Source: Candidatus Pacebacteria bacterium CG_4_9_14_0_2_um_filter_40_15 (GTDB taxonomy: Bacteria > Patescibacteriota > Microgenomatia > UBA1400 > PJMF01). From it: a stretch of DNA of 64,000 nt. The translations under genes and the position numbers were made by a program. Shown here piece by piece: positions 13,883-41,025 of this stretch (position 1 is its first letter; every line of letters begins with the position of its first letter). The notes under the pieces were generated by a model. That model was not told the origin of the DNA, searched no databases, and was given only the letters and a program-made list of their open reading frames with translations. The stretch spans positions 199,767 through 263,766 of the forward strand of contig PFRS01000005.1 of the NCBI GenBank assembly GCA_002788675.1. The letters are read 5' to 3'.

Positions 13883-13912
13883 ATTGATTTCATGTTTCAG
13901 TGATGTACTACG

Positions 13913-15385: not shown

Positions 15386-15394
15386 GAAAGATGG

Positions 15395-16102: not shown

Positions 16103-16243
16103 ATATAGTGTATTGTAACAGGTGCTAATTAAAGATTGCCAATTCAAACTAGATCATTATACTAAGGAGAAGGCTTCTGTTGTGCCAGCGTTCATTTGCA
16201 AAACAACGATATACACTTTATTTGATTACACAGAAAGTACTGT

Positions 16244-16978: not shown

Positions 16979-17021
16979 GAACGATAGTTCACATCTGAAT
17001 CATACTTTAGTAGAAAGTAAC

Positions 17022-27088: not shown

Positions 27089-27169
27089 ATGCAATAGTAA
27101 TAACAGCAGACAAGCTGATTGGAGCCTACAACCACTCCAACTAGTAGATTCTGCACAAAAGGGAAACAT

Positions 27170-27505
27170 ATGAAAGCATTAAAACTCACCTTAGCTGGTG
27201 TTCTTGCTACAGCAACAATGCTCAGCTTCTCAACTGTGGTTTCTGCAGATACAGCTGAACAGTCACAATCTGCTGACCAAAAAGTAACAGTTAAATGTAC
27301 AACTGGTTCTTATGGACAAGACTCAACTTGTGAAGCTTCTGGAGAGCAATCTCTCGAGCAATCACAAAAGATTGTCTATACCAACGTTCTTGGTAAAACC
27401 CATGAGCCTGTTGATACAGCTCTCGACTTTGGTACTGCATCTGCAGCTGCCATGAGTTTAGTAACTGGTGCTGGTGCACTCGTACTTAAACGTAAGATTG
27501 CTTAA
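27170..27505 (+). CDS. Small secreted protein with C-terminal hydrophobic segment + KRK (sorting-signal-like)
   Basis: Signal peptide MKALKLTLAGVLATATMLSFSTVVSA. C-terminus ...GTASAAAMSLVTGAGALVLKRKIA. The start is set at the second Met; the ORF track starts at 27119. Confidence 0.55.
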   Translation: MKALKLTLAGVLATATMLSFSTVVSADTAEQSQSADQKVTVKCTTGSYGQDSTCEASGEQSLEQSQKIVYTNVLGKTHEPVDTALDFGTASAAAMSLVTGAGALVLKRKIA

Positions 27506-28071: not shown

Positions 28072-29223
28072 ATGAAGAAAGTACTATCTTTCATGTTCTT
28101 AGCAGTTTTATTGTCCGCGTGCCGGATCCCCGGCACTGATTTCGTTATTTTCGAAAGCATTGCTGAAGAAAGTAGCGTAATTGTAGTTGTCGAACCCACC
28201 CCAACCCCTAGCCCAACTCCTGTTGTGGCTATTGAAGACGCTGCTTTTCAATGGGTTCCCGGCGTAGATGCTCGTATTGACAATCTGTTCACTGATCCCA
28301 ACCATGCTTATGGTACCGATACCAATGTTGCATGTGGGACCCCCAACAATGCTGATGGGGTTATTATTCCAGGAGATGCTGTGTATTCAGCCGAAGATCT
28401 CCGCTACATGGAAGAAGGTGATCATGATTATCCCAATGATATCTATGTCGATTGCAAAAATTTTATCGGATGGCAACTACGCATTCTTGATCCCGAAATG
28501 CCCAAAAGCGAAACTGCCGAAGCAACTGCAACCCCGGCCGCTGAAGTTGAAAACACCGATCCAATTGGTGAAGAAGTTTTAACCGCTGATGGTACCTGGC
28601 GCGTCAAGCTGTGGCAAGATTTGTCATATGGCCCTGAACTGGGTCACAGCCGTCCTGGCTTCGGAACTTCAATTAATGAGATTGGCATCGCCGTTGGCGT
28701 TGACCTGTCCGTTATCATTGATGGTAAAGAAGTAATGCTCGGTGGTGGATGTAACCAAATCGCCGTTATGCCAGAAAGTTACGCCCGCGACGCGGGTGGG
28801 AACGACTGGGGCTACCGCTCATACCAGTTCAATCCTGAGGTCACGCAGGCCTTGGATGAACTCGTGGTGCTGAACCACGAATGGGCACGTGCGCAGATTA
28901 ACGACGAAGATTGTCCCGAACTGTCCGACGAAGAACTGCTGATTCACACCTTTGTGTTTTGGCAAGATTCTGAAGGCGTAGATCACCTCCAACCATGGCA
29001 AGAGTTCCGTCGGGCAACCGGCGAGGACAATGTCATCATGGTTCACCCGTCTGACGGGGCCATGATCGGTTGGCATTGTGGCGAAGGCGACAGCCAAGAC
29101 AACCTGGCCGACAACGGCCAGTGTTTTGTCGAGGATGTTAACTTCTGGGGTTACCTTGGTGGTGGCGTTGTCCACCCCTGGGAAGGTGAAGTCCCGGCTA
29201 ATACCGTAGACGTCACCAAATAA
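28072..29223 (+). CDS. Lipoprotein of unknown function, markedly GC-rich (putative horizontally acquired)
   Basis: Lipobox LLSAC and SD GGAGG. Codon usage is rich in GCC/GGC/CCC, with local GC visibly ~50-55% against ~38% around it. It has a Pro/Thr linker and an acidic domain. Confidence 0.65.
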   Translation: MKKVLSFMFLAVLLSACRIPGTDFVIFESIAEESSVIVVVEPTPTPSPTPVVAIEDAAFQWVPGVDARIDNLFTDPNHAYGTDTNVACGTPNNADGVIIPGDAVYSAEDLRYMEEGDHDYPNDIYVDCKNFIGWQLRILDPEMPKSETAEATATPAAEVENTDPIGEEVLTADGTWRVKLWQDLSYGPELGHSRPGFGTSINEIGIAVGVDLSVIIDGKEVMLGGGCNQIAVMPESYARDAGGNDWGYRSYQFNPEVTQALDELVVLNHEWARAQINDEDCPELSDEELLIHTFVFWQDSEGVDHLQPWQEFRRATGEDNVIMVHPSDGAMIGWHCGEGDSQDNLADNGQCFVEDVNFWGYLGGGVVHPWEGEVPANTVDVTK

Positions 29224-29370: not shown

Positions 29371-29598
29371 ATGACAAAAATTTTAACAACACTGTTACTT
29401 TTTCTTTCACTCGTTTCGATGTCAGCATTTGGATACTTCTTTATGCTTACAAAACAAGCTGAAGTAAGAAACCAAGCTATTGCCGATTGTGCAGCAGCAT
29501 ATCGCTACAGCTTTAGTGAAAGTTCAGGAGCTACCATAACTGTTCCTGTTAGTGACAAATTTGATGAATGTTTACAACTTAAACACATCGAAAAATAA
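29371..29598 (+). CDS. Small secreted protein (75 aa)
   Basis: Signal peptide and 2 Cys, with a terminator downstream. Confidence 0.4.
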   Translation: MTKILTTLLLFLSLVSMSAFGYFFMLTKQAEVRNQAIADCAAAYRYSFSESSGATITVPVSDKFDECLQLKHIEK

Positions 29599-29614: not shown

Positions 29615-29640
29615 AAAAGCCGGGTAAAACCGGCTTTTTT
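29615..29640. terminator. Bidirectional rho-independent terminator (AAAAGCCGG-gtaaaa-CCGGCTTTTTT) between convergent genes
   Basis: A GC stem flanked by an A-run and a T-run. Confidence 0.7.
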
Positions 29641-29667: not shown

Positions 29668-31530
29668 TTATTCCCTTACTACCCAATTGTCTTGATTTAT
29701 GACCCATCCAGGAGCTTCTAGCTGTATATCTGGGTTCTCCCAAAAGATCTTAAAACTTACCCAATCAGAAACATCTATTGGGCCTGCTACAAAGCCACGT
29801 TCTGCACCAATACTCTTCCATTCAGGTGAAAATAAAACTGAAGAATCCATCCCAGGAATGCCCCCGACTTCAAGTTGTGTGTCCTTTTCTAGATTCCAGA
29901 GTTCTAACCAGAGCGTATTTTCGGTTCCTTTTATAACAAATTCGGGTTCAATTACTCTGAAAACCGTAAAGATGTCGCCTTCATAGACTACAGGATACCT
30001 TGACCAGAAGTGATCTATGTATGGATCTATATCACACATACGTCCCGGATAGTTTCTGCTATCGACTAAGATGTAGTCTTTAGGCTCAAATTTTTGATAA
30101 TCAGAAATTCTGAGACTAAATGATTGCCAAGATGGACAACTTTCAAAAAAGCGAAACCCCAATACATTTCCATCTCTTTCTAGAGTATTTAGGACAAAGG
30201 GTGAATACTCTTCAAGAATGGTCAGTACTTTAGCATCCTTCTCAATCATTGATTGAATACCGGTATACTCAGATTGCATGGACTCGTTCCAAAGTTCATA
30301 TGAACCAAACGAAGCATAGGCTTGAATGTACTTCCACCAACTTATCGGACCAAACCAAGTTCCCATAAGTATATCTAGAACTAACAGCAACATACCAAAA
30401 AATTGAGCAACACCGCTCTGTTTATATAACGTTCTAACCAAATCAAAGAAACTAGATGCGCCCACACCAAATAATAAAGCAGCTGGTAAAACCCAGGGTA
30501 ATGCATAGTAATCGTGCGTTCGTGTTCCCCAAGAAAGCAACGCTGTCAACAAAATACAGCTTAATACCCATGTTACTAAGACTGTTGAAGAAAATCGTGA
30601 GTTTTTTTTAACTGAAACAAACAGACCCACCGATGCAAAGAAACCGCCAAGTGGAGTGAGTAACTCACCAAATAATCTTTCAGTTCCAAAGGTAATTGGC
30701 CACTGTGTCTCCTTCCAAAATGGAAAATACCCCTTATGACCATGCATAAGCGTAAGAAAATCGGGATCTGAGCGAACCGAATCTGGAAAGGTGGCTATCC
30801 ACAGACGCCAGAGCAATAACAAAAGTAAAGGTATACCCAGTGCAAGTACTGCTTGAACCAAGAATGTAGCGACTTGTTTGTTTTTTCTGGTCCCAATAAG
30901 TACTTTTACTAACTGTTGCAGATGTTCTCCAAAAAGAGCTACAAATAAAAGTAGTCCAAAAAGTACGTAACTTGGTTTTGAAAGTATTGCCAACCCAAAT
31001 CCAAGACTCATCACGAGTAACCACTTACTATTAGTTTTAGCCTTCACCGCAGCATAGACAGATAAGGAAAATCCAAAAAGTGACAGAATATCAGGAGTAA
31101 CCGCTCTTCCCCAGAATGAAAACCCCGGAAAAAACTGCATAGCAACTGCACCAACTGCACCAGGCAAATCTGACTTAAATAACAGTCTGCCAGTTAAAAA
31201 AACAATAACTCCAATGCCACATGCAAGCAAAATGTTTACAAATCTGACTGCAACTAGACCAGTAGACACAGTCGAGACAAAACCAATGATAGCTTCATAA
31301 AAAGGCACTTCTGCTAAAAAATATCTCCCAGTGTTGGCTGGATCTGGGGCATGATAAAAGGTTGGAGCAAAAAAACTAGCTTCACCAGAGGCCAACTTTT
31401 GGCTAATTACCCAAGTATCTGTCTGCCTGAAATTGTGCCTGTCAACAAGTGGTCGCTCTATATTGTAGAGGCGCGAGAGAATACCAGCTACAAAAATACA
31501 CAAAAATACCACCCAGAATCTCTTTTTCAT
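29668..31530 (-). CDS. GT-C fold membrane glycosyltransferase, GT39/GT83 (PMT/ArnT)-like, with C-terminal soluble domain
   Basis: ~11 TM helices over 430 aa. The N-terminal region RLYNIERPLVDRHNFRQTDTW...FYHAPDP resembles the first loop of PMT_2/ArnT-like enzymes. There is a ~200-aa C-terminal extracytoplasmic domain. The start is probably MKKRFWVV. Confidence 0.45.
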   Translation of the reverse strand: MKKRFWVVFLCIFVAGILSRLYNIERPLVDRHNFRQTDTWVISQKLASGEASFFAPTFYHAPDPANTGRYFLAEVPFYEAIIGFVSTVSTGLVAVRFVNILLACGIGVIVFLTGRLLFKSDLPGAVGAVAMQFFPGFSFWGRAVTPDILSLFGFSLSVYAAVKAKTNSKWLLVMSLGFGLAILSKPSYVLFGLLLFVALFGEHLQQLVKVLIGTRKNKQVATFLVQAVLALGIPLLLLLLWRLWIATFPDSVRSDPDFLTLMHGHKGYFPFWKETQWPITFGTERLFGELLTPLGGFFASVGLFVSVKKNSRFSSTVLVTWVLSCILLTALLSWGTRTHDYYALPWVLPAALLFGVGASSFFDLVRTLYKQSGVAQFFGMLLLVLDILMGTWFGPISWWKYIQAYASFGSYELWNESMQSEYTGIQSMIEKDAKVLTILEEYSPFVLNTLERDGNVLGFRFFESCPSWQSFSLRISDYQKFEPKDYILVDSRNYPGRMCDIDPYIDHFWSRYPVVYEGDIFTVFRVIEPEFVIKGTENTLWLELWNLEKDTQLEVGGIPGMDSSVLFSPEWKSIGAERGFVAGPIDVSDWVSFKIFWENPDIQLEAPGWVINQDNWVVRE

Positions 31531-31588
31531 ATATCTATAATAGCAGTTTTTAGCCAAGTTGTCTCATATTTAATATAATCCTATAATA

Positions 31589-31617
31589 TTGACGTATTAC
31601 TGTTTCCGTGTTATAAT
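31589..31617 (+). promoter_or_regulatory. Sigma70 promoter TTGACG-17-TATAAT preceded by ATAATCCTATAATA element
   Basis: The 19-nt block ATAATCCTATAATATTGAC is identical to the one at 32468-32487. Confidence 0.55.
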
Positions 31618-31722
31618 TACCTCAAGTTAAGTAATTTTGCTTGACTGTATATCCTGAAATACTAGCGCATGCAGACGCTGCGTAATGTATTTTAGGACTG
31701 CACATTCACATAGGAGAAAAAA

Positions 31723-32412
31723 GTGAAAAGAATCTTATTGATCCTAGGGACATTCGTTCCTACAATTCTTATTCTGTTCGTCTCATCTGTGGTTTTTGCT
31801 AAACCAGCAGATCTGACAGCCACTGTGTTTGGTAGCGGTGAAACCTTTACCATTACGGTAGAAGGCGGCACAGGCCTCGAGCAAATCGAAGCCTATACAC
31901 CAAACCAATTGGTCTTTACACCGGAATGGACTTTGATCACCACTAATACATACCAGGCCGTGATCACAAGCACTACTGGCTGGGACAGCTTCACGCTGTT
32001 CTGGAAAGACCAAACCTGGGTAGATCAACATGACACCTGGGAAAATAACGGTGACGGTTTTATGGTCCGCGCTCAAACACCGCCGGCACCACAACCAAAT
32101 CCAATTACTGCAACCGTTACTGGTCAAGGTGAAAGCTTTACCATAACGGTAGAAGGCGGGACAGGAACCGAGCAATTAGAAGTGTACCGACCTGATCAGT
32201 ATGTCTTTACGCCGGATTGGACGCTAGTTACAACTGGCACCTATCAGGCGATCATAACAGACACAACGGGTTGGGACAGCTTCACGCTGTTCTGGTTAGA
32301 TCAAACCTGGGTTGATCAACATTCTACCTGGGAAGATAACGGTGACGGCTTTATGATTCGTTCACCTAAACAGGTATTTTGGTCCTTCCTTCCGTTCATT
32401 CGGAAGGACTAG
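31723..32412 (+). CDS. Secreted protein built from two tandem ~84-aa repeat domains; GC-elevated
   Basis: GTG start with SD AGGAG and a signal peptide. Repeat units share TITVEGGTG.EQ.E.Y.P.Q.VFTP.WTL.TT.TYQA.IT.TTGWDSFTLFW.DQTWVDQH.TWE.NGDGFM.R. Confidence 0.7.
   Translation: MKRILLILGTFVPTILILFVSSVVFAKPADLTATVFGSGETFTITVEGGTGLEQIEAYTPNQLVFTPEWTLITTNTYQAVITSTTGWDSFTLFWKDQTWVDQHDTWENNGDGFMVRAQTPPAPQPNPITATVTGQGESFTITVEGGTGTEQLEVYRPDQYVFTPDWTLVTTGTYQAIITDTTGWDSFTLFWLDQTWVDQHSTWEDNGDGFMIRSPKQVFWSFLPFIRKD
31819..32361 (+). repeat. Tandem direct coding repeat, 2 x ~252 nt (~80% nt identity) separated by a 39-nt Pro-rich linker
   Basis: Repeats 31819-32070 and 32110-32361 share an identical 25-mer CTGGGACAGCTTCACGCTGTTCTGG. 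Confidence 0.8.
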
Positions 32413-32426
32413 TTCTCCTCTGTGTT

Positions 32427-32468
32427 AGCCCCCGGCCTCTGAAAAGAGATCCCGGGGGCTTTCTATTT
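32427..32468 (+). terminator. Rho-independent terminator (AGCCCCCGG...CCGGGGGCT + TTTCTATTT)
   Basis: 9-bp GC-rich stem. Confidence 0.65.
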
Positions 32469-32482
32469 ATAATCCTATAATA

Positions 32483-32511
32483 TTGACAAATCACCATTTA
32501 AATGCTATACT
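32483..32511 (+). promoter_or_regulatory. Sigma70 promoter TTGACA-17-TATACT preceded by ATAATCCTATAATA element; near-leaderless transcript for GT2 gene
   Basis: The -10 ends 10 nt before ATG 32522. The track ORF start at 32483 is the TTG of the -35 itself. Confidence 0.55.
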
Positions 32512-32521
32512 TGTATCTAGT

Positions 32522-33382
32522 ATGAAACAAAAAGACACACATACACCAATAATCAGTGTCGTTATGCCTGTGCACAATGCAGCGGCGTACGTTTCCCAAG
32601 CAATTGAGAGTATTCTCAATCAAACTTTCACTGATTTTGAGTTTATTATTCTCGATGACTATTCTACCGACGATTCTCTTACGATTATTAAAAAATGGTC
32701 TAAAACAGATTCTCGCATTAAAGTCATCTCTAACACCAAAAAACCTGGTGTAAGTTCTGCGGCCAATCAGCTACATGCTGCGGCACAAGGAATGTATATA
32801 GCCCGTATGGATGCTGATGACATTTCAGAACCTACTCGACTAGAAGTGCAGCTTTTAGTTTTCAAAAAGTATCCTAAAACAGTTGCCGTTGGTAGCCAGT
32901 GTACCGTTATTGATGAAAATAACGCTACTATTGGTGAAAAAACTTTTCCTACAAAGCCTTCAGACATTAAAAAGATGTCTGGATATCTCTATCCTGTGCA
33001 ACAGCCTTCTGTGATGTTTGCTACCAAACGTATTCCATCAGATTTTGTCTGGTATGACGAATCACTTTCATCTGCTGAAGAACATGAACTCCTCTTTAAG
33101 CTTATGCAGTTTGGTGACATTCGAAACACAAAAGAATCACTTTTACAGTATCGATTACATGCAACTAATACTTCAAAAGTACATCCTAAAAAGGATTACT
33201 CAGCCATCCTGAGAGCCCGAATCACTGGATTCACTACCTATGGCGTACCACTTACAGCTAAAGCTGTAGTACTTAACATTGTTCAATTCATCTTTGTAAG
33301 CCTCTTACCTGAGAAGGCACTCTTTAGCATATTCAGCCTCCTTAGAGGCATGAACAGAAAGGAGACCGCATATGAAAAATAA
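32522..33382 (+). CDS. Family 2 glycosyltransferase
   Basis: N-terminus ISVVMPVHNAAAYVSQAIESILNQTFTDFEFIILDDYSTDDS (GT-A fold, DxD region). Confidence 0.8.
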   Translation: MKQKDTHTPIISVVMPVHNAAAYVSQAIESILNQTFTDFEFIILDDYSTDDSLTIIKKWSKTDSRIKVISNTKKPGVSSAANQLHAAAQGMYIARMDADDISEPTRLEVQLLVFKKYPKTVAVGSQCTVIDENNATIGEKTFPTKPSDIKKMSGYLYPVQQPSVMFATKRIPSDFVWYDESLSSAEEHELLFKLMQFGDIRNTKESLLQYRLHATNTSKVHPKKDYSAILRARITGFTTYGVPLTAKAVVLNIVQFIFVSLLPEKALFSIFSLLRGMNRKETAYEK

Positions 33383-34127
33383 ACAACTATTACCATCACT
33401 CTCTCTCTTTTATCCTGCATATAATGAGGCAGGAAATATTGAGGAAGCAGTAAAACAAGCACTCCAAGTGCTTCCAACTGTTGCTAAAAAATTTGAGATC
33501 ATTGTTATTAATGATGGAAGTAAAGATGCAACCTTAACTATTTCGAAGCGTTTAGCTAAGCGATATGCACCGGTTCGTGTAATTACACAAAAGAACCGAG
33601 GATATGGTGGTGCACTTAAACGTGGCTTTAAAACTGCCAAGTATGAGTGGATCTTCTTTACAGACTCAGACTTACAGTTTGACTTATCTGAACTCCAACG
33701 GTTCATACCACATACTAGAAATAATAAAATTGTCATTGGCTACCGTAAGCAGCGTGCAGAAGGTAAAAATCGACAGATGCTTGCTACTATGTTAAAAATC
33801 TGGAGTAAAGTTATCCTGGGATTCCCTTCAGGTGTAAAAGATATTGACTGTGCTTTTAAGTTAATTCATAAGTCTGTGCTCAACACAGTCGGTGAATTAA
33901 AATCAGATGGTGCTATGGTATCTACTGAGTTCTTACTAAAAACACATTTAGCAGGGTTTACCATTAAACAGCTTGGTGTAACTCATCAGCTCAGAATGCA
34001 TGGTACTCAAACGGGTAATAATCCTATGGTTATCGCTAAAGCCATTAAAGACACATTCGTACTTAAACAATCACTTGTTCAAGAGTATGTCATGCAAAAG
34101 CAAGCACAGCTTGCATCACTAGCATAA
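33372..34127 (+). CDS. Polyprenyl-phosphate glycosyltransferase (GtrB/DPM1/ArnC-like GT2)
   Basis: LSLFYPAYNEAGNIEEAV...FEIIVINDGSKDAT...QKNRGYGGALKRGF...FFTDSDLQFD matches the DPM1/GtrB polyprenol-P-sugar synthase pattern. It overlaps the upstream GT2 by 11 nt. Confidence 0.7.
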   Translation: MKNKQLLPSLSLFYPAYNEAGNIEEAVKQALQVLPTVAKKFEIIVINDGSKDATLTISKRLAKRYAPVRVITQKNRGYGGALKRGFKTAKYEWIFFTDSDLQFDLSELQRFIPHTRNNKIVIGYRKQRAEGKNRQMLATMLKIWSKVILGFPSGVKDIDCAFKLIHKSVLNTVGELKSDGAMVSTEFLLKTHLAGFTIKQLGVTHQLRMHGTQTGNNPMVIAKAIKDTFVLKQSLVQEYVMQKQAQLASLA

Positions 34128-34149
34128 TCCAGACTACAATGGGTGTGCA

Positions 34150-37100
34150 ATGATACAGCGTATTACCCAACACTTTCGACGTTTTTTTACACCTCATATT
34201 ATGCTGTTAGCCTTGTGCTGGCTTGCTATTGTGTTTACGAATTTCAATCCGGGCACTTGGCTCATTGGTTGGGATAATCTCATTCCTGAAGTAAATATTT
34301 TCCTAAACCTGTACAAAACAATCTTTTCTGCTTGGCAAAGTTGGCAAGGTCTGGGTATAGTTGGTGGCATTGCTCATGCTTCAGAACTGAGCCGAGAACT
34401 CATACTTCTCCCCTTTGCACTTATTCTTCCTGGTGAACTCATTAGATACATCTGGACTTTTGCAATGCTGTTAGTTGGAATGCTTGGTACCTACCACTTA
34501 GCACTTTGGCTACTAAAAGAGTCTAAGCATTCAACATGGATAGCCTTAGTAGTAGCTGTAGCCTATACTTTTAATTTAGCAACTATTCAAAACTTTTTTG
34601 TACCATTAGAAGCCTTCTCAACTTTTTGGGGCTTTTTTCCTCTATTTTTATTGACTGCTTTTAAGCTGGTCAAAAATCCTAGCAAAAAAAGTATCTTTTT
34701 CTTTGCGCTGATACAGTTTCTTGGAGCTTCTGCCTTTCACGTCCAAACTATGTTTATCGTGTATTCACTTGTGTTAGGTATTTTCACGCTAGCAAGTCTA
34801 ATCAGCTCTCGTGGACAAAACATTAAGGCACTTTGTGTACTTTGGATAACACTCATTCTTGTGCATTTTTATTGGCTCGCACCAGTTGGCTACTTTACCC
34901 TTACAAATGCACAGCAAACTGTGGATTCGAAACAAAATAGTATTTCCACACAAGAAGTTTTTGAATCTAATAAAGCCGCAGGATCACTTACCAATATACT
35001 CAGACTAAAGGGATATTGGTTTAACTATACAGATAGCAACCCAAATGGGACCCAGTATCTTATGGATGCATGGGAAAAACATACCAACTCACTGCCGGTT
35101 GCTGTGGGAAGTATCTTGATAAGTCTTGTTGGTATTGGGGGATATATTCTCTATCTTAGATCCTTGGATGCAGATACACATGTTCGCACAGAATATATCG
35201 TGTTCTTCCTCACAGCAACACTGCTAGCAATTTCAATGCTCACAACAGGTAAAGGCATAGTTGGGCTAGGCTATACAGTCATTACAAAATTACCGCTCCT
35301 TGGACAAGTCTTTAGAGTTCCATTCACCAAGTGGTCTGTGGTACTTTCACTCTTCATTTCAATTGGAATTGGCTATTTTCTCAGCTATGTTACTGCACAA
35401 AAAAAACTATTGGTTATGGGTGCGACAGCACTCTTTATTGCATTGGCTAGCATTTTTAGCGCAGCGCCTCTCTTTAGTGGCGGACTCTTTTATAGTAACG
35501 TACAACTTTCACTGCCCAGTGCCTATTCTCACTTATTCGAAGAACTCTCAACACAACCAACCACTAATCGGATTCTCTACCTTCCTTTTGATGACTTTTG
35601 GGGATGGATGAATCATGATTGGGGCTACCGAGGAAGTGGTTTTATTTGGTACGGAATAAAGCAACCAATCATTGACAGAAATTTTGATGTGTGGAGTGTA
35701 AGAAATGAGACACTCTACACACAACTTCAACAAACACTCCAAACCAAAAACACAGCCGAGACAGAGATTTTACTTGATAAATATGACATTTCTCTACTTT
35801 TAATCGACACCAGCATACAAGCCAATCAAAAAAGAAAACAAGAAACTGCCGATACTATTCAAGCATTAGAAAAAACTGGGTACATATCTAAAATTTGGGA
35901 AGACGACTTTCTCAGTCTCTATAAAACAACAATTGAATCAGGTGAATTACAGGTAACTCATTCAGAAGGTATCCAACCACTTGAAAAAAGACTCATTACT
36001 GATACTGTGGCATATGCTGGTAGCTACTACTTTGACTCAAATAGTCAGCTGCATCTGCCCCTACAGAATCTACTCACTGAATCAATTTCAAGTCAGCGAA
36101 TGCAAGTTCAAAATGATCAGATTGTAGTACCACTTCTGAACCAAGCATCAAAAATCACCATCCCCTCATTAGAAGGAATGAAACAAATGTATGGTATTCA
36201 GCTGATTGGAAATAAGCTCACTATTGAACCAATCGCACCTCTTCACTTGCTAGATACAAAAACAAATACAACCCGAGACATCTACTCTTTGACAAAAATG
36301 GAGTACACTTTCGATACCTTAGGAAAGAAAATTTATCTAGATATCAACGACACTCTTTTCACATTGAATGAAACTGAGTATCGACAAATTATTCTTCCAG
36401 AAATAATTTCTCAACCAGTTACCATGAAAATATCTAGTGCTGAAGATATTTCCACAGTTGATGAAAATACGTTACAAAGCACTCGATACCAAGAATTACA
36501 TGTCCCCTCAACGCTTTGGCAGGACTTGCTGAGCGAGAAAATACTTGAATCCGGACCAGATGAGCAATTGTTACTAGCAACTCTGAGTGAGCTCTTACCC
36601 TTTGACGCATCAGATACTGTTGCAAATAATTGTGATGCACTTTCTCGGGGAACTACAGCTAAACAAATAACTGACCAACATACCAGTGTGTATACTTCTA
36701 ATGATTTTGGCATCTTCTGTGATGGAAGTTCTACTCAAAAAATGCAAGCAAACCAAGACCATTTCCTAAAGATAACCGCCACTAATACAACTGGCTTGCC
36801 ACTCAGATTTTATATTAAAAATAATGCTACAGAAACTATTTTGCTAGAACAGGTACTCACTGATTCAGCTAACTACTTCTTCGTTCCTCAAGACATTTCT
36901 AACGGTAACCTATCAGTGAATATCCAAAATAAATCCACCGGAACTCTGAGTAAAAATACTCTTATAGACGTCAGTCTCCATGAACTCCCTATTCATTTAG
37001 CACTACTGGGGAAAATTAAAGTCAGTCCAGTCTCTTCAAATGCTGTTGAGACACAGTCAACAGAAGAATCGCCATCAGATCTTTCAGTATCAAAATTTAG

Positions 37101-37482
37101 TACATTCAAAATCGGTAATTTTTTATACTTCATTTCATTCGCATCTCAATCTGAACAAGAAAAAGACGCAACCCTATTGACTGTATCTCAGAGCTATGAC
37201 GCCGGATGGATCGCATTCTCTTATTCAGCATTCCCAACCCCGCTACGACATGTGGAAGTAGATGGTTGGAAAAATGGATGGGAGATTCAAAATGGAAAAA
37301 ATGCACTCTTCATACTCTATTGGCCACAATTAGGTGTCTTTTTGGGATACATTTTGCTATTTATAGTGTTAAAACACGTTTACTTAGGTGTGAAATTAGA
37401 AAAAAGTGAAAATACTCAAAAAAAACGACGGGCACGACAACTGTACCGGGTGCCTAAAAAAATTCTGGGTGGCAAAAAATAA
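34150..37482 (+). CDS. 1110-aa polytopic membrane protein: N-terminal ~13-TM domain + ~650-aa extracytoplasmic domain + C-terminal TM; putative GT-C type (YfhO/ArnT-like) glycosyltransferase
   Basis: The topology is inferred from hydrophobic helices in aa 1-440 and one near the C-terminus. It is adjacent to the GtrB-like gene. Motif-level identity is not established. Confidence 0.4.
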   Translation: MIQRITQHFRRFFTPHIMLLALCWLAIVFTNFNPGTWLIGWDNLIPEVNIFLNLYKTIFSAWQSWQGLGIVGGIAHASELSRELILLPFALILPGELIRYIWTFAMLLVGMLGTYHLALWLLKESKHSTWIALVVAVAYTFNLATIQNFFVPLEAFSTFWGFFPLFLLTAFKLVKNPSKKSIFFFALIQFLGASAFHVQTMFIVYSLVLGIFTLASLISSRGQNIKALCVLWITLILVHFYWLAPVGYFTLTNAQQTVDSKQNSISTQEVFESNKAAGSLTNILRLKGYWFNYTDSNPNGTQYLMDAWEKHTNSLPVAVGSILISLVGIGGYILYLRSLDADTHVRTEYIVFFLTATLLAISMLTTGKGIVGLGYTVITKLPLLGQVFRVPFTKWSVVLSLFISIGIGYFLSYVTAQKKLLVMGATALFIALASIFSAAPLFSGGLFYSNVQLSLPSAYSHLFEELSTQPTTNRILYLPFDDFWGWMNHDWGYRGSGFIWYGIKQPIIDRNFDVWSVRNETLYTQLQQTLQTKNTAETEILLDKYDISLLLIDTSIQANQKRKQETADTIQALEKTGYISKIWEDDFLSLYKTTIESGELQVTHSEGIQPLEKRLITDTVAYAGSYYFDSNSQLHLPLQNLLTESISSQRMQVQNDQIVVPLLNQASKITIPSLEGMKQMYGIQLIGNKLTIEPIAPLHLLDTKTNTTRDIYSLTKMEYTFDTLGKKIYLDINDTLFTLNETEYRQIILPEIISQPVTMKISSAEDISTVDENTLQSTRYQELHVPSTLWQDLLSEKILESGPDEQLLLATLSELLPFDASDTVANNCDALSRGTTAKQITDQHTSVYTSNDFGIFCDGSSTQKMQANQDHFLKITATNTTGLPLRFYIKNNATETILLEQVLTDSANYFFVPQDISNGNLSVNIQNKSTGTLSKNTLIDVSLHELPIHLALLGKIKVSPVSSNAVETQSTEESPSDLSVSKFSTFKIGNFLYFISFASQSEQEKDATLLTVSQSYDAGWIAFSYSAFPTPLRHVEVDGWKNGWEIQNGKNALFILYWPQLGVFLGYILLFIVLKHVYLGVKLEKSENTQKKRRARQLYRVPKKILGGKK

Positions 37483-37544
37483 AACAACGGGCTAGTCCAT
37501 TTCACGCTACACTTCCTGTCACTTTCACCCCCTAAACTATACAT

Positions 37545-38411
37545 ATGTTCACACAGCTTAGGGAATCCTTTGCACACCTCATGAACCGCATGGGCTCAGG
37601 CGCCGCACTCTCGCTTATTTTTTTGTTCAGCGCTCCACTGTGGGTTCAGTCAACAGCCCGGGCTGAAGTGATCGTTACGGAGATAATGTCCAATCCATCA
37701 ACGGGCACTGAATGGATTGAGCTAACTACGAAAGGAGAAGAAACAGCTGATATTAGCAACTTTAAACTGTACGATGCTGTTTCTTCTCCTTCGCTCCTAG
37801 TTACGTTTCCAGAAAATACTATTCTGCACTCAAACACTGCCTCAGTAATTGAAATTGACTCAGCCAAACTCAACAATTCTGGTGATGCCGTGGTTCTCTA
37901 TACCCCAGAGGGTACCGAAGTATTCAACATTATCTTTGAAGCCAGTGAAAAAGGCCTGAGTTGGCAAAGAACCTTAAATGTACCTGCATACTTTCAAACA
38001 GAACCAAATCCTGGCGAATTTTCTGCTGAAATTGTATCTGCTGTTCCATCACCTTCAGCAGGACCATCTCCTGTACCTTCACAACAACCTGTCTCAGAGA
38101 ATCTGCCCCAAGAAGAAAACTCCAGTTCACAAACAACTCACGAGTTGACGGAAGAACTTATAGCTCAACAAACTGCTCTAGAATCAACACTCACCACGCT
38201 CCTAGGAAGAGACACATCATTTACTTATGAGCCTTTAGAAACTAAGCAGGACGTACAATCCAACAACGCAGAACCTCAGACGTTTACTCGTAAACAACTG
38301 TTTGAACCGCCAAGATCTAGTGCTGTTTCACTTATAGGAGGTGGTATACTTATCTCAAGTGTAAGTTATATAGTCCTGTATGTTTTGGAACAAAAAGAAA
38401 TCTTTCCTTAG
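37545..38411 (+). CDS. Lamin-tail-domain (LTD) containing secreted protein with Pro/Ser linker and C-terminal TM anchor
   Basis: AEVIVTEIMSNPSTGTEWIELTTKGEETADISNFKLYD...NSGDAVVLYTPEGTEV fits the LTD pattern (I.E..NP..GD.EWIEL.N......L.G..L.D). There is a signal peptide and a C-terminal helix ISSVSYIVLYVL. Confidence 0.5.
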   Translation: MFTQLRESFAHLMNRMGSGAALSLIFLFSAPLWVQSTARAEVIVTEIMSNPSTGTEWIELTTKGEETADISNFKLYDAVSSPSLLVTFPENTILHSNTASVIEIDSAKLNNSGDAVVLYTPEGTEVFNIIFEASEKGLSWQRTLNVPAYFQTEPNPGEFSAEIVSAVPSPSAGPSPVPSQQPVSENLPQEENSSSQTTHELTEELIAQQTALESTLTTLLGRDTSFTYEPLETKQDVQSNNAEPQTFTRKQLFEPPRSSAVSLIGGGILISSVSYIVLYVLEQKEIFP

Positions 38412-38802
38412 CTCAATAAAAATTGCTGGTAAGCCGCTGTCTGTCTGGATTAATGCATTCCTACCACCTCTCCTTTGGGCAGGTGTTATTTTCTTTTTCT
38501 CATCAAGAAGTGAGCTGCCTTCAGCGTCATACTCATCCTTAGACTTTATCTTTAAAAAAATGGCTCACATCACTGTTTTTTCGGTATTGTTCATCTTTAT
38601 GGACAGAGGATTCAGAGTATATTCAAGAAATTATTCACTCAGAAAACATTGGTATTTACCGGTATTCATTTGTTTTGCCTATGCAATGAGTGATGAAATG
38701 CACCAATACTTCGTACCAAATCGGCACCAAACATTCAGAGATGTGGGGTATGATATGCTGGGTGTATTCACCATGTACCTCTATAAAACTGACCGCATCT
38801 AA
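38380..38802 (+). CDS. VanZ-like family membrane protein
   Basis: 4 TM. The conserved block AMSDEMHQYFVPNRHQTFRDVGYDMLG resembles the VanZ DE.HQ.F.P.R....D...D..G signature. Confidence 0.55.
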   Translation: MFWNKKKSFLSSIKIAGKPLSVWINAFLPPLLWAGVIFFFSSRSELPSASYSSLDFIFKKMAHITVFSVLFIFMDRGFRVYSRNYSLRKHWYLPVFICFAYAMSDEMHQYFVPNRHQTFRDVGYDMLGVFTMYLYKTDRI

Positions 38803-39286: not shown

Positions 39287-39310
39287 ACGCTACGTTACTT
39301 TAAAAATGTA

Positions 39311-39340
39311 AGAGCCCTTCCACACGAAGGGCTCTTTTTG
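39311..39340 (+). terminator. Rho-independent terminator (AGAGCCCTTC-cacac-GAAGGGCTCT + T5)
   Basis: 10-bp stem with a U-run. Confidence 0.8.
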
Positions 39341-39394: not shown

Positions 39395-40195
39395 GTGTTA
39401 AAAAAATACCTTGCAATCTATCGCTACATGTTTATTCGCTCACTCCAATTTAGAACTGAGTTAGTCATTTACGTGCTCCTCGATATTCTGCCATTTTTTG
39501 TGCTCTTCTTTGTGTGGCAGGCAGCATTTTCTGGTAAAACTGAGATTAATTCATTTACGCTTCCCCAAATCACACAGTACTACTTCTTAGTAATGATTAT
39601 TGAGCGCGTCACTTCTACCTACTTTGAGAACTGGCGTGCAACAGAAATTAGAGAAGGAAAAATTGATTACTTTCTTACTCGTCCATTCTCCTACATCAAC
39701 GACGTCTTTTCAAAAGATGTAGGTGGCAAACTGGTTAGTCTTGCTATTAGTTTGCCTGGTCTGGCCGTTGCGTTTTTTTTAATTAGTTTGGTGCTCCCTG
39801 TGGCGCCACTTTCAGTGGCGCCACACCAAATCTTTATCTTCATTTTCTTTATGATTACGGGATACCTCATCCAGTTCATGATTGCGTTGTGGATTGTATT
39901 GCTTACTTTTTGGTTTGAAGGCTCATCCGGGCTTGAGCATTTTAAATGGATTTCAGTTTCACTTTTCAGTGGAGCTATGATTCCCACAACATTCATGCCA
40001 ACTTGGATTCAATCGGTGTACCAATTTTTACCACTCAAATATATTTTTGCTGTTCCGATTACCTATCTTCAAGGGACGCTTTCACTTACTCCAGGTATGT
40101 TCCTTGAATTAGCAATAGCACTACTCTGTATGTTTGGTATAACCAGAGTGTTCTGGCACTACGCGCTCTATCAATATAGTTCTGCAGGTGGATGA
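39395..40195 (+). CDS. ABC-2 type transporter permease, paralog 1 (COG4587/COG3694-like)
   Basis: 6 TM. The C-terminal YQYSSAGG motif is shared with the other paralogs. Confidence 0.6.
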   Translation: MLKKYLAIYRYMFIRSLQFRTELVIYVLLDILPFFVLFFVWQAAFSGKTEINSFTLPQITQYYFLVMIIERVTSTYFENWRATEIREGKIDYFLTRPFSYINDVFSKDVGGKLVSLAISLPGLAVAFFLISLVLPVAPLSVAPHQIFIFIFFMITGYLIQFMIALWIVLLTFWFEGSSGLEHFKWISVSLFSGAMIPTTFMPTWIQSVYQFLPLKYIFAVPITYLQGTLSLTPGMFLELAIALLCMFGITRVFWHYALYQYSSAGG

Positions 40196-40995
40196 GGTTT
40201 ACTATGAAAAAATACTGGCACCTTTTTTGGCATTTTAGAAAAGTCGACTTCATGCGCATGATGGAGTATCGAACAGACTTCGTCTTTTGGCTCATTGTCT
40301 CACTTATGTGGACTGCATTTAACTACTTCTTCTTCTTTCTTATTTTTGGAACAACTGAAAGTGTGGCTGGATGGTCACACCAGGAATTAGTAATTGTACT
40401 TTCGTTCTTTACCATGATAGACGCACTAACCTGGTCCGTGTTTTACGCCAACATGACACAATACACTCAATCTGTTTTTTCTGGTGAACTCAGCAAATAC
40501 TTACTTCAACCGGTAAGTACAATTTTTCTACTCACAACACAACGAATGAGTTACAACAACATTCCACGATTCCTCATTGGACTCATTGTATTAGTCATTA
40601 CGGCTGTAAAGATGGATATTTCCGTCTCTATGATGGAACTAGCGCTCATTGTAGTTCTTTTTATATGCGGGGCGGTTTTCATCTATTCTGGTTGGTTCAT
40701 TCTTGCCACACTCTCGCTTTGGGTAGACAAGCTGCAAAATATCAATGATATTATGCCCGGCTTCCGTCGTGTATACCAAATCCCTAGACAAGTATTCACT
40801 GGGGTAACTGCTCTCACCTTCACCTTTATTTTCCCCTTAGGCCTGATTACATCACTTCCAAGCGAAATACTCACTGGTAAAAATCCACCAGTGTTGCTTA
40901 TTCTTTATTTTATCGTAGCTACAACTTGTCTGGCTTTAACAGCACGTGCATTTTTTAAGTATTCAATTAAACAGTATTCAAGTGTCGGCGGATAA
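40192..40995 (+). CDS. ABC-2 type transporter permease, paralog 2
   Basis: 6 TM with N-terminal KKYWHLF and C-terminal KQYSSVGG. It overlaps the upstream gene by 4 nt. Confidence 0.6.
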   Translation: MRFTMKKYWHLFWHFRKVDFMRMMEYRTDFVFWLIVSLMWTAFNYFFFFLIFGTTESVAGWSHQELVIVLSFFTMIDALTWSVFYANMTQYTQSVFSGELSKYLLQPVSTIFLLTTQRMSYNNIPRFLIGLIVLVITAVKMDISVSMMELALIVVLFICGAVFIYSGWFILATLSLWVDKLQNINDIMPGFRRVYQIPRQVFTGVTALTFTFIFPLGLITSLPSEILTGKNPPVLLILYFIVATTCLALTARAFFKYSIKQYSSVGG

Positions 40996-41025
40996 CCGCT
41001 ATACTACTAAGGTAACAAAGGATCA

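What the first reader, a model, noticed from the sequence alone, without database searches (positions are those of the whole stretch)
29668..38802. Surface glycosylation module: GtrB-like polyprenyl-P glycosyltransferase + two GT-C-type membrane proteins + GT2 + LTD and VanZ proteins
Six co-localised genes point to a polyprenol-phosphate-sugar dependent extracytoplasmic glycosylation pathway. They are a GT39/PMT-like GT-C protein (29668-31530, minus strand), a GT2 (32522-33382), a DPM1/GtrB-like polyprenyl-phosphate glycosyltransferase (33372-34127) translationally coupled to the GT2, an 1110-aa protein with a ~13-TM N-terminal domain and a 650-aa outside domain (34150-37482, YfhO/ArnT-like architecture), a lamin-tail-domain secreted protein (37545-38411) and a VanZ-like protein (38380-38802). 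The GtrB + GT-C pairing is the logic of Gtr/YfhO-CsbB systems. No GtrA-type flippase is visible, so an unknown flippase or the giant protein itself may take that role. The substrate is unknown; it could be protein O-mannosylation-like, or a cell-wall glycopolymer in an organism thought to have a minimal envelope. For a reduced Patescibacteria-like genome this is a large investment and is probably poorly characterised.
Basis: partly seen in the sequence, partly recalled or inferred. Interest (0 to 1): 0.75.

Follow-up and report, generated by a model that had tools for sequence, protein, structure and literature searches.

The report
AftD-like envelope glycosylation operon in Patescibacteria
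A tiny-genome Pacebacteria-type bacterium carries an operon that most likely loads sugar onto a membrane lipid carrier inside the cell and lets a large, unannotated membrane enzyme, whose closest solved relative is mycobacterial AftD, attach it to a surface polymer outside; the logic is known, but this enzyme family and its partner set are not described.

Summary

The 251-aa GT2 has the DPM1/GtrB/ArnC/GacI signature (98-DSDLQ-102) and no transmembrane helix. All five sampled orthologues in other Patescibacteria sit next to a member of the big protein's family.

The 299-aa GT2 is a glycan-extending GT-A, like chondroitin polymerase or SpsA. It or a GT1 lies directly upstream of the GT-C in 54 of 71 species loci. 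Both are found fused to the DPM1-like enzyme.

PMT_2 and VanZ travel with the cluster only in close relatives; LTD also recurs in one distant locus. No flippase is visible.

Verdict: a new variant of the known multi-component transmembrane glycosylation systems. Substrate, sugar and flippase remain unknown.

The parts
29371..29598 (+). 75-aa protein with an N-terminal membrane helix and an outside segment of about 45 aa carrying two conserved Cys.
   Evidence: A jackhmmer search finds homologues in 14 of 92 loci. They are usually immediately upstream of the GT genes of the big-protein locus, and overlap or abut the GT2b orthologue in L093 and L090. A role in the pathway is inferred from position only.
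29615..29638 (.). Bidirectional terminator-like hairpin that closes the PMT_2 gene (minus strand) and the upstream plus-strand genes.
   Evidence: 9-bp stem with 5 GC pairs and T-runs on both strands.
29668..31530 (-). Second GT-C enzyme, PMT_2 type, with about 10 TM helices and a 230-aa outside C-terminal domain.
   Evidence: Pfam PMT_2 47.2 bits and PMT 33.5 bits, both above their cut-offs. The orthologues in L003 and L004 share the loop-1 motif DRHxFRQTDT. Its last ~60 aa are homologous to the repeats of the neighbouring secreted protein. It is adjacent to the cluster only in L003 and L004. Non-orthologous PMT_2/PMT genes lie near the big protein in L024, L029 and L030.
31723..32412 (+). 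Secreted 229-aa protein made of two tandem repeats of about 97 aa, transcribed divergently from the PMT_2 gene.
   Evidence: Direct DNA repeat of 254 nt at 76% identity. Signal-type N-terminal helix. BLASTP of the PMT_2 C-terminus against both repeats gives E 3e-5 and 2e-4. Homologues are present in L004 and L009. A promoter-like site lies at 31589-31617.
32522..33382 (+). GT2a: cytoplasmic glycan-extending GT-A glycosyltransferase (DxD = D97-A-D99-D100) with three C-terminal membrane-associating helices.
   Evidence: Pfam GT2 E 4e-32. AlphaFold model pLDDT 92. Foldseek top hits are K4CP chondroitin polymerase, SpsA, WrtF, heparosan synthase and TarP/TarS, with no DPMS, GtrB or ArnC in the top 50. 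An orthologue lies immediately upstream of the GT-C in 25 of 71 species loci. It is fused to GT2b in L015.
33372..34127 (+). GT2b: DPM1/GtrB/ArnC/GacI-type polyprenyl-phosphate sugar synthase without a TM helix.
   Evidence: PDB sequence hits are PfDPMS 5MLZ (residues 10-192, E 4e-11), ArnC and GtrB sll0501. In the alignment, 98-DSDLQF-103 corresponds to PfDPMS 89-DADLQH-94, E19 to Glu12, D48 to Asp39 and R125 to Arg117 (residue roles from PMC5526996). No hydrophobic helix is found. All 5 sampled orthologues sit next to a member of the big-protein family.
34150..37482 (+). AftD-like GT-C glycosyltransferase of 1110 aa. Residues 1-440 form the membrane GT-C domain with invariant Asp42 (motif GWDN) in outside loop 1. 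Residues 440-1057 form the outside domain with an alpha/beta part and CBM-like beta-sandwiches. Residues 1058-1081 form the C-terminal anchor helix.
37545..38411 (+). Surface-anchored LTD protein: signal peptide, lamin-tail domain, Pro/Ser-rich linker and C-terminal TM helix.
   Evidence: Pfam LTD 48.9 bits. Topology. It is conserved downstream of the GT-C in L003, L004, L009, L011, L013 and L015, and an LTD gene also lies two genes downstream in the distant locus L093.
38380..38802 (+). VanZ-family small membrane protein with 4 predicted helices, overlapping the LTD gene by 32 nt.
   Evidence: Pfam VanZ 47.4 bits and NCBIfam vanZ_1 69.9 bits. It is conserved with the cluster only in L003, L004, L009, L011 and L015, and is absent from the five GT2b-anchored loci.
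32483..32511 (+). Promoter-like site in front of the GT2a start codon. No strong terminator follows until after the HU gene (39310-39336).
   Evidence: TTGACA, 17-nt spacer, TATACT, with an extended-10 TG. This is a consensus match only.

Best explanation
The genes from 32522 to 38802 form one operon for extracytoplasmic glycosylation through a polyprenyl-monophosphate carrier.

1. GT2b sits on the inner face of the membrane. It transfers a sugar from a nucleotide sugar to undecaprenyl (polyprenyl) phosphate. The enzyme class is shown by homology and motifs; the sugar is unknown.
2. GT2a is held at the membrane by its C-terminal helices. It adds a further sugar to this lipid-linked sugar. This step is inferred from its glycan-extending GT-A fold, from its fusion to GT2b in a relative, and from its interchangeability with a GT1 that is also found fused to GT2b.
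3. The lipid-linked mono- or disaccharide is flipped by a protein not identified in the locus.
4. The 1110-aa AftD-like GT-C uses it as donor. Catalysis runs through Asp42 in outside loop 1. The enzyme transfers, or polymerises, the glycan onto an envelope glycopolymer or glycolipid that its CBM-like beta-sandwich modules hold. The fold and the conserved residues are shown; the acceptor is inferred.
5. The PMT_2 GT-C, which is divergently transcribed and shares a domain with the adjacent secreted repeat protein, is a second outside transferase that could draw on the same lipid-sugar pool. The LTD protein and VanZ are lineage-specific operon members of unknown role.

I put the general statement (polyprenyl-P-sugar synthase plus AftD-like GT-C acting in one outside glycosylation pathway) at about 0.8. 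The specific version with GT2a elongating the lipid-linked sugar is at 0.45.
For: - GT-C fold, closest to AftD. Weak but concordant sequence links to AftD and YfhO.
- Invariant Asp42 with nearly invariant Glu47 after TM1, and invariant Arg389, Lys394 and Asp513, in homologues down to 19% identity. AftD needs K39, D41, E251, K361 and D474 (bioRxiv 10.1101/2019.12.22.885152).
- CBM-like modules in the outside domain.
- GT2b aligns with DPMS, ArnC and GtrB and keeps the DxDxQ motif (PMC5526996).
- Reciprocal synteny: 5 of 5 GT2b orthologues from diverse Patescibacteria abut a protein scoring 770-1008 bits against the big-protein profile.
- In 71 species loci, the gene directly upstream of the GT-C is GT2a (25), GT1 (29) or GT2b (2). 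The median gap is 4 nt, and 54 of 56 gaps are at most 30 nt.
- Fusions: GT2a-GT2b in L015 and GT1-GT2b in L036.
- GT2a's fold resembles glycan-extending GT-A enzymes, not polyprenyl-P synthases.
- Experimental precedent for this exact order of steps in Lactococcus PSP: TM-less WpsA makes GlcNAc-P-C55, cytoplasmic GTs elongate it, a Wzx flippase moves it, and GT-C enzymes WpsH and WpsJ act outside (PMC10821137).
- The general scheme is reviewed in PMC8035078.
- Operon signals.
Against: - There is no biochemical evidence of any kind; everything is inferred from sequence, models and gene order.
- No flippase (GtrA or Wzx) is present in the operon or in the scanned parts of the window; 43.7-64 kb was not scanned.
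- GT2b has no membrane helix, and no GacJ/WpsB-like activator was identified.
- Of the 71 loci most similar to this GT-C, only 18 have a DPM1-like GT2 within three genes upstream, so in most genomes the donor synthase would have to be encoded elsewhere.
- A fusion shows functional linkage, not the order of reactions. GT2a could instead build the acceptor.
- The window protein itself does not reach any Pfam GT-C model.
Confidence: 0.45

Rival explanations
1. Plain Gtr / CsbB-YfhO / GacI-GacL logic. GT2b makes a C55-P-monosaccharide, and the AftD-like GT-C adds that single sugar as a side-chain to a polymer. GT2a (or GT1 in relatives) works separately, building the polymer backbone or its lipid-linked primer in the cytoplasm.
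For: This is the commonest known use of a DPM1-like GT2 plus GT-C pair (PMC8035078). AftD itself adds single arabinofuranose residues to a complex glycan, and its CBMs hold the acceptor. CBM-like modules are present here too. In the five GT2b-anchored loci, GT2b and the GT-C are adjacent without GT2a in four.
Against: It does not explain why GT2a or GT1 is fused to GT2b. It also does not explain why a cytoplasmic GT is translationally coupled to the GT-C in 56 of 71 loci.
Confidence: 0.27
2. Protein glycosylation. One or both GT-C enzymes glycosylate Ser/Thr-rich (or Asn) stretches of surface-anchored proteins encoded nearby. Candidates are the LTD protein with its Pro/Ser linker, the tandem-repeat secreted protein, and the small C-terminally anchored proteins. 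This could occur sugar by sugar (PMT-like) or en bloc (OST/PglB/AglB-like).
For: After AftD, the next-best structural matches are STT3, Pmt4, PglB and AglB. The neighbourhood is rich in secreted or anchored proteins, with sortase genes near the GT-C in 19 of 71 loci and an LPETG protein with a Pro/Thr linker directly downstream in L037. GT2b and GT2a give weak NCBIfam matches to haloarchaeal AglJ, Dol-P-hexose transferase and AglG. The second GT-C is of PMT_2 type.
Against: AftD also has OSTs as its next structural neighbours, so that ranking carries little information. No acceptor-peptide motif or WWD-type OST motif was identified. The CBM-like array fits a glycan acceptor better. The downstream protein is not conserved across the family.
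Confidence: 0.15
3. True AftD orthologue: an arabinofuranosyltransferase that uses decaprenyl-phospho-arabinose to branch an arabinan.
For: Best structural match by both methods. Some homologues reach the Pfam GT-C_AftD threshold.
Against: Sequence identity to AftD is 11-14%. The window protein does not match PF11847. The ACP-binding TM13-16 bundle, which is essential in AftD, is absent: the protein ends 29 residues after its single C-terminal helix. The conserved partner is a nucleotide-sugar-dependent GT2, not a PRPP-dependent DPA pathway.
Confidence: 0.02
4. No shared pathway. The genes are neighbours only because gene order is conserved in this lineage, and each acts in an unrelated process.
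For: The HU gene, the ABC-2 transporter genes and the ribosomal protein genes are just as syntenic in L003, L004, L009 and L011. PMT_2 and VanZ are not conserved with the GT-C beyond close relatives; LTD recurs in only one distant locus.
Against: For the core trio this is contradicted by the fusions, by 5 of 5 reciprocal adjacency across distant lineages, and by gaps of about 4 nt.
Confidence: 0.05

Closest known systems
Mycobacterial arabinofuranosyltransferase AftD (PDB 6W98, 6WBX; Pfam GT-C_AftD/DUF3367)
   Different: Identity is 11-14%. The protein is 1110 aa against about 1400. It lacks the TM13-16 four-helix bundle that binds acyl carrier protein. Its operon partner is a DPM1-type GT2 rather than the decaprenyl-phospho-arabinose pathway. 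AftD homologues were reported only within Actinobacteria, whereas this family is found in Patescibacteria.
Lactococcus PSP pathway: WpsA/WpsB, WpsC and further GTs, WpsG, and GT-C enzymes WpsH and WpsJ (PMC10821137)
   Same: A TM-less DPM1-like GT2 with a DxDxQ motif primes C55-P. Cytoplasmic GTs elongate on the monophosphate carrier. GT-C enzymes polymerise and transfer outside. There is more than one GT-C per locus.
   Different: No WpsB/GacJ-like three-helix activator and no Wzx flippase are found here. The GT-C enzymes here are AftD-like and PMT_2-like. The elongating GT is fused to the primer enzyme in some relatives. No rhamnan genes are seen.
Three- or four-component systems: GtrA/B/X, CsbB-GtcA-YfhO, GacI/J/K/L (PMC8035078)
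   Same: The division of labour is the same: a GT-A lipid-sugar synthase inside and a GT-C transferase outside, encoded side by side.
   Different: GtrB and CsbB carry two C-terminal TM helices, while GT2b has none. There is no GtrA-type flippase. The GT-C does not match the YfhO model (only one homologue's C-terminus does). An additional cytoplasmic GT is the most constant partner.
Haloarchaeal Agl N-glycosylation: AglJ, AglG and others on Dol-P, with AglB as the GT-C
   Same: A DPM1-like enzyme starts a glycan on a polyprenyl monophosphate, soluble GT2 or GT4 enzymes extend it, and a GT-C transfers it. There are weak NCBIfam matches of GT2b to AglJ and Dol-P-hexose transferase, and of GT2a to AglG.
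   Different: All matches are far below the family cut-offs. The GT-C here is closer to AftD than to AglB or STT3. No protein acceptor has been shown.
Mycobacterial Ppm1 with GT-C mannosyltransferases of LM/LAM synthesis (PMC3485146)
   Same: A DPM1-like polyprenyl-P-sugar synthase without its own membrane domain feeds GT-C enzymes that build a lipoglycan. GT4 enzymes prime the lipid anchor, which parallels the GT1 variant of the locus.
   Different: The mycobacterial genes are not organised as one operon. No evidence for mannose or for a phosphatidylinositol anchor was found here.

Membership tests
Multi-component transmembrane glycosylation system | GT-A (GT2) enzyme that makes a polyprenyl-P-sugar: DPM1-type catalytic domain with a DxDxQ motif | tested here: met
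   GT2b aligns with PfDPMS, ArnC and GtrB over residues 9-192. Its 98-DSDLQ-102 matches DADLQ of DPMS.
Multi-component transmembrane glycosylation system | Membrane attachment of the synthase, either by its own TM helices or by a small membrane partner (GacJ/WpsB) | tested here: inconclusive
   GT2b has no TM helix. No DUF2304/GacJ-type protein was found. The candidates (the 75-aa protein, the GT2a C-terminal helices, VanZ) are speculative.
Multi-component transmembrane glycosylation system | Flippase of GtrA or Wzx type | tested here: not met
   No such Pfam or NCBIfam hit in the region or in the scanned neighbours. The rest of the genome could not be searched.
Multi-component transmembrane glycosylation system | GT-C fold transferase with a conserved acidic residue in outside loop 1 | tested here: met
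   Model pLDDT 89. Matches AftD, STT3, PMT, PglB and ArnT. Asp42 is invariant.
Multi-component transmembrane glycosylation system | Synthase and GT-C genetically linked | tested here: met
   22-nt gap in the window. 5 of 5 reciprocal adjacency. 18 of 71 loci have a DPM1-like GT2 within three genes upstream.
Multi-component transmembrane glycosylation system | Demonstrated lipid-sugar intermediate and transfer to a polymer | not testable with these tools
   Needs enzyme assays and glycan analysis.
AftD (GT-C_AftD, PF11847 / DUF3367) | Match to the Pfam family model | tested here: not met
   The window protein has no hit even at E 10. 8 of 36 homologues hit at E<=0.1; of the three examined individually, only P0010 is above the cut-off (39.9 against 26 bits).
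AftD (GT-C_AftD, PF11847 / DUF3367) | Overall architecture: GT-C membrane domain, large outside domain with CBMs, then a re-entrant helix | tested here: met
   The profile hit to AftD residues 1155-1272 includes TM12.
AftD (GT-C_AftD, PF11847 / DUF3367) | C-terminal TM13-16 bundle that binds acyl carrier protein (essential in AftD) | tested here: not met
   Only one C-terminal helix (1058-1081), followed by a 29-residue basic tail. The requirement in AftD is described.
AftD (GT-C_AftD, PF11847 / DUF3367) | Essential residues K39, D41, E251, K361, D474 | tested here: inconclusive
   D42 matches D41 by position. R389, K394 and D513 are invariant, but they could not be aligned residue by residue to AftD.
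AftD (GT-C_AftD, PF11847 / DUF3367) | Decaprenyl-phospho-arabinose as donor | not tested
   No DPA-pathway gene was seen in the window. The linked synthase is a nucleotide-sugar GT2, which argues against this donor.
YfhO (PF09586) | Match to the family model, and a CsbB-type partner with TM helices | tested here: not met
   No hit for the window protein. Only the C-terminus of homologue P0017 matches YfhO positions 744-832. The partner GT2b lacks TM helices.
DPM1/GtrB/ArnC/GacI polyprenyl-phosphate glycosyltransferases (for 33372-34127) | Two or more C-terminal TM helices (GtrB, ArnC, PfDPMS subtype) | tested here: not met
   No TM helix. It resembles the TM-less subtype (GacI, WpsA, human DPM1).
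PMT / PMT_2 GT-C (for 29668-31530) | Pfam match above the cut-off, and an acidic motif in loop 1 | tested here: met
   PMT_2 47.2 bits and PMT 33.5 bits. Asp30 and Asp38 are invariant in DRHxFRQTDT. No MIR domains were detected, so it is not a classical protein O-mannosyltransferase of the GT39 type.

The most novel reading that the evidence does not exclude
The AftD-like proteins are a large, unannotated GT-C family: 2264 clusters at 50% identity with E<=1e-30. In this reading they are the central outside polymerase or ligase of a major envelope glycopolymer or lipoglycan in Microgenomatia-type Patescibacteria. The polymer would be built on a polyprenyl monophosphate by a DPM1-like primer enzyme physically coupled, and sometimes fused, to a second GT. 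It would be flipped by a non-GtrA, non-Wzx protein; candidates are the conserved 75-aa membrane protein, VanZ, or the GT-C itself. This would mean that organisms thought to have a minimal Gram-positive-like wall make an actinobacterial or lactococcal-style secondary polymer, by a route that links bacterial and archaeal monophosphate-carrier glycosylation.
Probability: 0.25. Interest if true: 0.7.

Novelty: new variant of a known kind. Interest (0 to 1): 0.5.

Why it matters
- Patescibacteria have tiny genomes and are mostly uncultured, and their envelope chemistry is essentially unknown. Yet this lineage spends about 9 kb on glycosylation enzymes.
- The central enzyme belongs to a family of thousands of sequences that databases call 'hypothetical protein' and that no Pfam model captures.
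- Recognising it as an AftD-like GT-C, with defined partners and candidate catalytic residues, gives a concrete and testable entry point to the surface glycans of these organisms. Those glycans are likely to matter for host attachment, phage recognition and cell-wall integrity.
- It extends the AftD architecture beyond Actinobacteria.
- The GT-GT fusions offer a natural experiment on how lipid-linked sugars are handed between enzymes.

Tried and rejected
- Direct Pfam, NCBIfam and PDB sequence searches of the 1110-aa protein and its two halves, at E up to 10, gave nothing.
- The most distant homologue, P0083, searched against PDB sequences as a bridge to AftD, gave nothing. Residue-level mapping of the AftD catalytic residues therefore failed.
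- The AFDB50 fold library was not available.
- A tblastn search for orthologues of the PMT_2 gene in 80 species loci found none within 8 kb. A Pfam scan later showed non-orthologous PMT_2, PMT or YfhO-like genes near the GT-C in L024, L029, L030 and L071.
- I considered the downstream ABC-2 transporter (39395-43633, ABC2_membrane_6 plus an ATPase) as the exporter or flippase. I rejected it for lack of evidence: it follows the HU gene and a strong terminator, it is syntenic with the ribosomal genes only in close relatives, and it is absent from distant loci.
- I considered VanZ as a flippase or a GacJ-like activator. It is not co-conserved outside the closest lineage and is absent from the five GT2b-anchored loci, so it remains speculation only.
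- I considered GT2a as the polyprenyl-P synthase and rejected it on fold and sequence neighbours.
- The 1008-aa ORF at 19843-22869 was checked as a possible further membrane GT. It has no hydrophobic helix.
- Literature searches for this family in Patescibacteria/CPR found nothing relevant.

Full report
**1. What is in the sequence**

The ORF list reproduces all six genes of the finding. The identical 1110-aa protein is on record as a 'hypothetical protein' of a Candidatus Pacebacteria MAG.

Pfam confirms the domain calls:
- a PMT_2/PMT GT-C on the minus strand (47.2 and 33.5 bits, both above cut-off);
- two GT2 enzymes (E 4e-32 and 1.3e-27);
- an LTD protein;
- a VanZ protein.

The 1110-aa protein matches nothing in Pfam, NCBIfam or PDB sequences, even at E 10.

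Gene spacing is tight:
- GT2a and GT2b overlap by 11 nt;
- GT2b to the big gene is 22 nt;
- the big gene to LTD is 62 nt;
- LTD and VanZ overlap by 32 nt.

The only strong terminator-like hairpins are at 29615-29638 and after the HU gene at 39310-39336. Base composition is unremarkable.

One is a secreted 229-aa protein of two tandem repeats at 31723-32412. The other is a 75-aa membrane-anchored protein at 29371-29598.

**2. The 1110-aa protein is an AftD-like GT-C**

A homologue search gave 83 relatives, all unnamed or 'hypothetical' and all from Patescibacteria-type sources. A few carry weak precomputed hits to GT-C_AftD, YfhO or PTPS_related.

With a 36-sequence alignment, AlphaFold2 gave a confident model (pLDDT 89, pTM 0.87).
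- Foldseek against the PDB puts mycobacterial AftD first (E 2.4e-19, aligned over the full length), followed by STT3 and PglB.

At sequence level, the family profile reaches AftD only in the last beta-sandwich plus the re-entrant helix (E 0.016). Eight of 36 homologues hit Pfam GT-C_AftD at E<=0.1; of the three examined individually, only P0010 is above the curated threshold.

Conservation is concentrated where GT-C enzymes have their active site. G40, D42 and P46 are invariant and W41 and E47 nearly so in the motif GWDNLxPE, directly after TM1. R389 and K394 are invariant in FRxxFTKWS. R510, F512 and D513 are invariant in the first outside domain. These hold down to a 19%-identical relative.

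In AftD, K39, D41, E251, K361 and D474 are essential. D42 corresponds to D41 by position. The other residues could not be mapped.

The differences from AftD are clear. Identity is 11-14%. There is one C-terminal helix instead of TM12 plus the ACP-binding TM13-16 bundle. The outside domain is shorter. AftD homologues had been reported only within Actinobacteria.

The family is large. A profile search of 1.84 billion cluster representatives finds 2264 at E<=1e-30 and 5678 at E<=1e-10. A motif scan of species-representative genomes finds it in 352 genomes. Among the 80 best loci kept, the informatively named ones are Pace-, Levy-, Woese-, Shapiro-, Gottesman- and Roizmanbacteria. About a third of those records carry proteobacterial labels that I did not verify.

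**3. The two GT2 enzymes are different kinds of enzyme**

GT2b (251 aa) aligns over its whole catalytic domain with Pyrococcus dolichyl-phosphate mannose synthase, ArnC and GtrB. The residue-level correspondences are (roles from PMC5526996):
- 98-DSDLQF-103 matches DPMS 89-DADLQH-94, where Asp91 and Gln93 hold the metal and diphosphate and Asp89 contacts the sugar;
- E19 matches Glu12;
- D48 matches Asp39;
- R125 matches Arg117.

GT2b has no hydrophobic helix. It therefore belongs with the TM-less subtype (GacI, WpsA, human DPM1), which needs a membrane partner or amphipathic helices.

GT2a is different. Its best PDB sequence and structure neighbours are the chondroitin polymerase K4CP, SpsA, WrtF, heparosan synthase and TarP/TarS. 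No polyprenyl-phosphate synthase appears in the top 50. It has a DADD motif and three extra C-terminal helices, partly hydrophobic. It is therefore a glycan-extending enzyme working at the membrane surface.

**4. Which genes really travel together**

Two relatives whose big protein is about 34% identical keep the whole arrangement: PMT_2 (divergent), GT2a, GT2b, GT-C, LTD, VanZ, HU, the ABC-2 transporter and the ribosomal genes. General gene order is also conserved there, so this alone proves little.

In more distant relatives, only a glycosyltransferase directly upstream of the GT-C persists. I examined 71 species loci with enough upstream sequence:

| Feature | Count |
|---|---|
| Gene directly upstream is a GT1 | 29 |
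| Gene directly upstream is a GT2a orthologue | 25 |
| Gene directly upstream is GT2b | 2 |
| Median gap to the GT-C | 4 nt |
| Gaps of 30 nt or less | 54 of 56 |
| DPM1-like GT2 within three genes upstream | 18 |
| Sortase gene nearby | 19 |

The reverse test is stronger. I started from five GT2b orthologues (54-64% identity) chosen only for lying on long contigs. Those whose source titles are informative are Chisholmbacteria and WWE3. Every one sits beside a protein that scores 770-1008 bits against the big-protein profile.

Two natural fusions tie the cytoplasmic enzymes together. L015 encodes GT2a-GT2b as one 558-aa protein, and L036 encodes GT1-GT2b as one 758-aa protein.

PMT_2 orthologues were not found within 8 kb in the 80 species loci. 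Other GT-C genes do recur next to the big protein: PMT_2/PMT in L024, L029 and L030; YfhO-like in L071; and a Pfam-less ~695-aa membrane protein with GDGWDN after its first helix in L047, L080 and L082.

LTD and VanZ follow the GT-C only in the closest lineage, although an LTD gene reappears in the distant locus L093.

**5. Most likely mechanism**

[quoted passage not shown] More specifically it resembles the variant shown experimentally for the lactococcal polysaccharide pellicle (PMC10821137). In that pathway:
- a TM-less DPM1-like enzyme makes GlcNAc-P-C55;
- cytoplasmic GTs elongate it on the monophosphate carrier;
- a flippase moves it across the membrane;
- GT-C enzymes polymerise and attach it outside.

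Mapped onto this locus, the steps are as follows:
- GT2b primes the polyprenyl phosphate (class shown, sugar unknown).
- GT2a extends the lipid-linked sugar (inferred from fold, fusion and coupling).
- An unidentified flippase acts.
- The AftD-like GT-C transfers or polymerises the unit onto a glycopolymer or glycolipid held by its CBM-like modules (fold and conserved residues shown, acceptor inferred).
- The PMT_2 enzyme would be a second outside transferase.

I give the general statement about 0.8 and this specific order 0.45.

The main rival (0.27) is plain single-sugar decoration, with GT2a acting elsewhere. Protein glycosylation of the neighbouring surface proteins is possible (0.15), but it rests only on neighbourhood and on generic GT-C similarity. 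A true arabinofuranosyltransferase is very unlikely (0.02).

**6. What remains unexplained**

- No GtrA or Wzx flippase and no GacJ/WpsB-type activator were found.
- A 75-aa, two-cysteine membrane protein is a recurrent neighbour, directly before GT2b in L090 and L093 and before GT2a in several other loci. In the window, the PMT_2 and repeat-protein genes lie between it and GT2a, as if inserted. Its role is unknown.
- The C-terminal ~60 residues of the PMT_2 protein are homologous to both repeats of the adjacent secreted protein (pairwise E 3e-5 and 2e-4). This links those two genes, but without a known function.

**7. Verdict**

The system is a new variant of a known kind. The logic is familiar. 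The central enzyme family is large, unannotated and AftD-like outside Actinobacteria. The synthase has no membrane helix. The partner set, including the fusions, is unusual. There is no recognisable flippase.

Interest is moderate (0.5). It offers a good entry point to the unknown envelope chemistry of Patescibacteria, but nothing here contradicts current understanding.

Noticed in passing
window 29371-29598 (+): 75-aa protein with one N-terminal membrane helix and two conserved Cys outside. Homologues lie immediately upstream of the GT genes in many related loci, overlapping the GT2b start in L093. In this window it is separated from GT2a by the PMT_2 and repeat-protein genes.
   Followed up: partly
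window 29668-29850 (C-terminus of the PMT_2 protein) and 31723-32412: The last ~60 residues of the PMT_2 GT-C are homologous to each of the two tandem repeats of the divergently transcribed secreted protein. The shared motif is F[ST]PEW...W[DV]SF.[IL]FW...[WF][VM]VR, with pairwise BLASTP E 3e-5 and 2e-4.
   Followed up: partly
L015 6316-7992 and L036 5638-7914: Natural fusion proteins: GT2a-GT2b (558 aa) and GT1-GT2b (758 aa), directly upstream of the AftD-like GT-C.
   Followed up: yes
L047 2229-4316, L080 5848-7935, L082 5042-7144: Family of Pfam-less ~695-aa multi-TM proteins, about 40% identical to one another, with GDGWDN after the first helix. In L047 and L080 the gene lies directly between the GT1 and the AftD-like GT-C; in L082 two short ORFs follow it before the GT-C. 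Probably another unannotated GT-C family.
   Followed up: partly
window 27119-27505 and 28072-29223: Two envelope proteins without Pfam matches. One is a small secreted protein with a C-terminal hydrophobic anchor and a KRK tail. The other is a 383-aa lipoprotein-like protein. Their homologues lie next to sortase genes upstream of the GT-C in relatives (L010, L013, L015, L036). No sortase gene was seen in the scanned part of the window.
   Followed up: partly
window 39395-43633: Five-gene ABC-2 type transporter: four ABC2_membrane_6 permease genes and one ATPase. It lies between the HU gene and the ribosomal protein genes and is conserved in close relatives. No evidence links it to the glycosylation genes.
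   Followed up: partly
window 19843-22869: 1008-aa ORF with no Pfam match and no hydrophobic helix. It lies downstream of a release-factor gene and upstream of the FtsE/FtsX/M23 genes.
   Followed up: no
window 11607-18728: Cell-wall gene group: FemAB-family transferase, DegT-type sugar aminotransferase, Mur ligase, and a DUF4012 membrane protein. The aminotransferase could supply an amino sugar for envelope glycans.
   Followed up: no
L009-L088 record titles: About a third of the 80 loci that carry this Patescibacteria-type gene cluster come from TPA MAGs labelled 'uncultured Pseudomonadales' or 'Gammaproteobacteria'. The labels look unreliable, because gene content and synteny match the CPR loci.
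   Followed up: no
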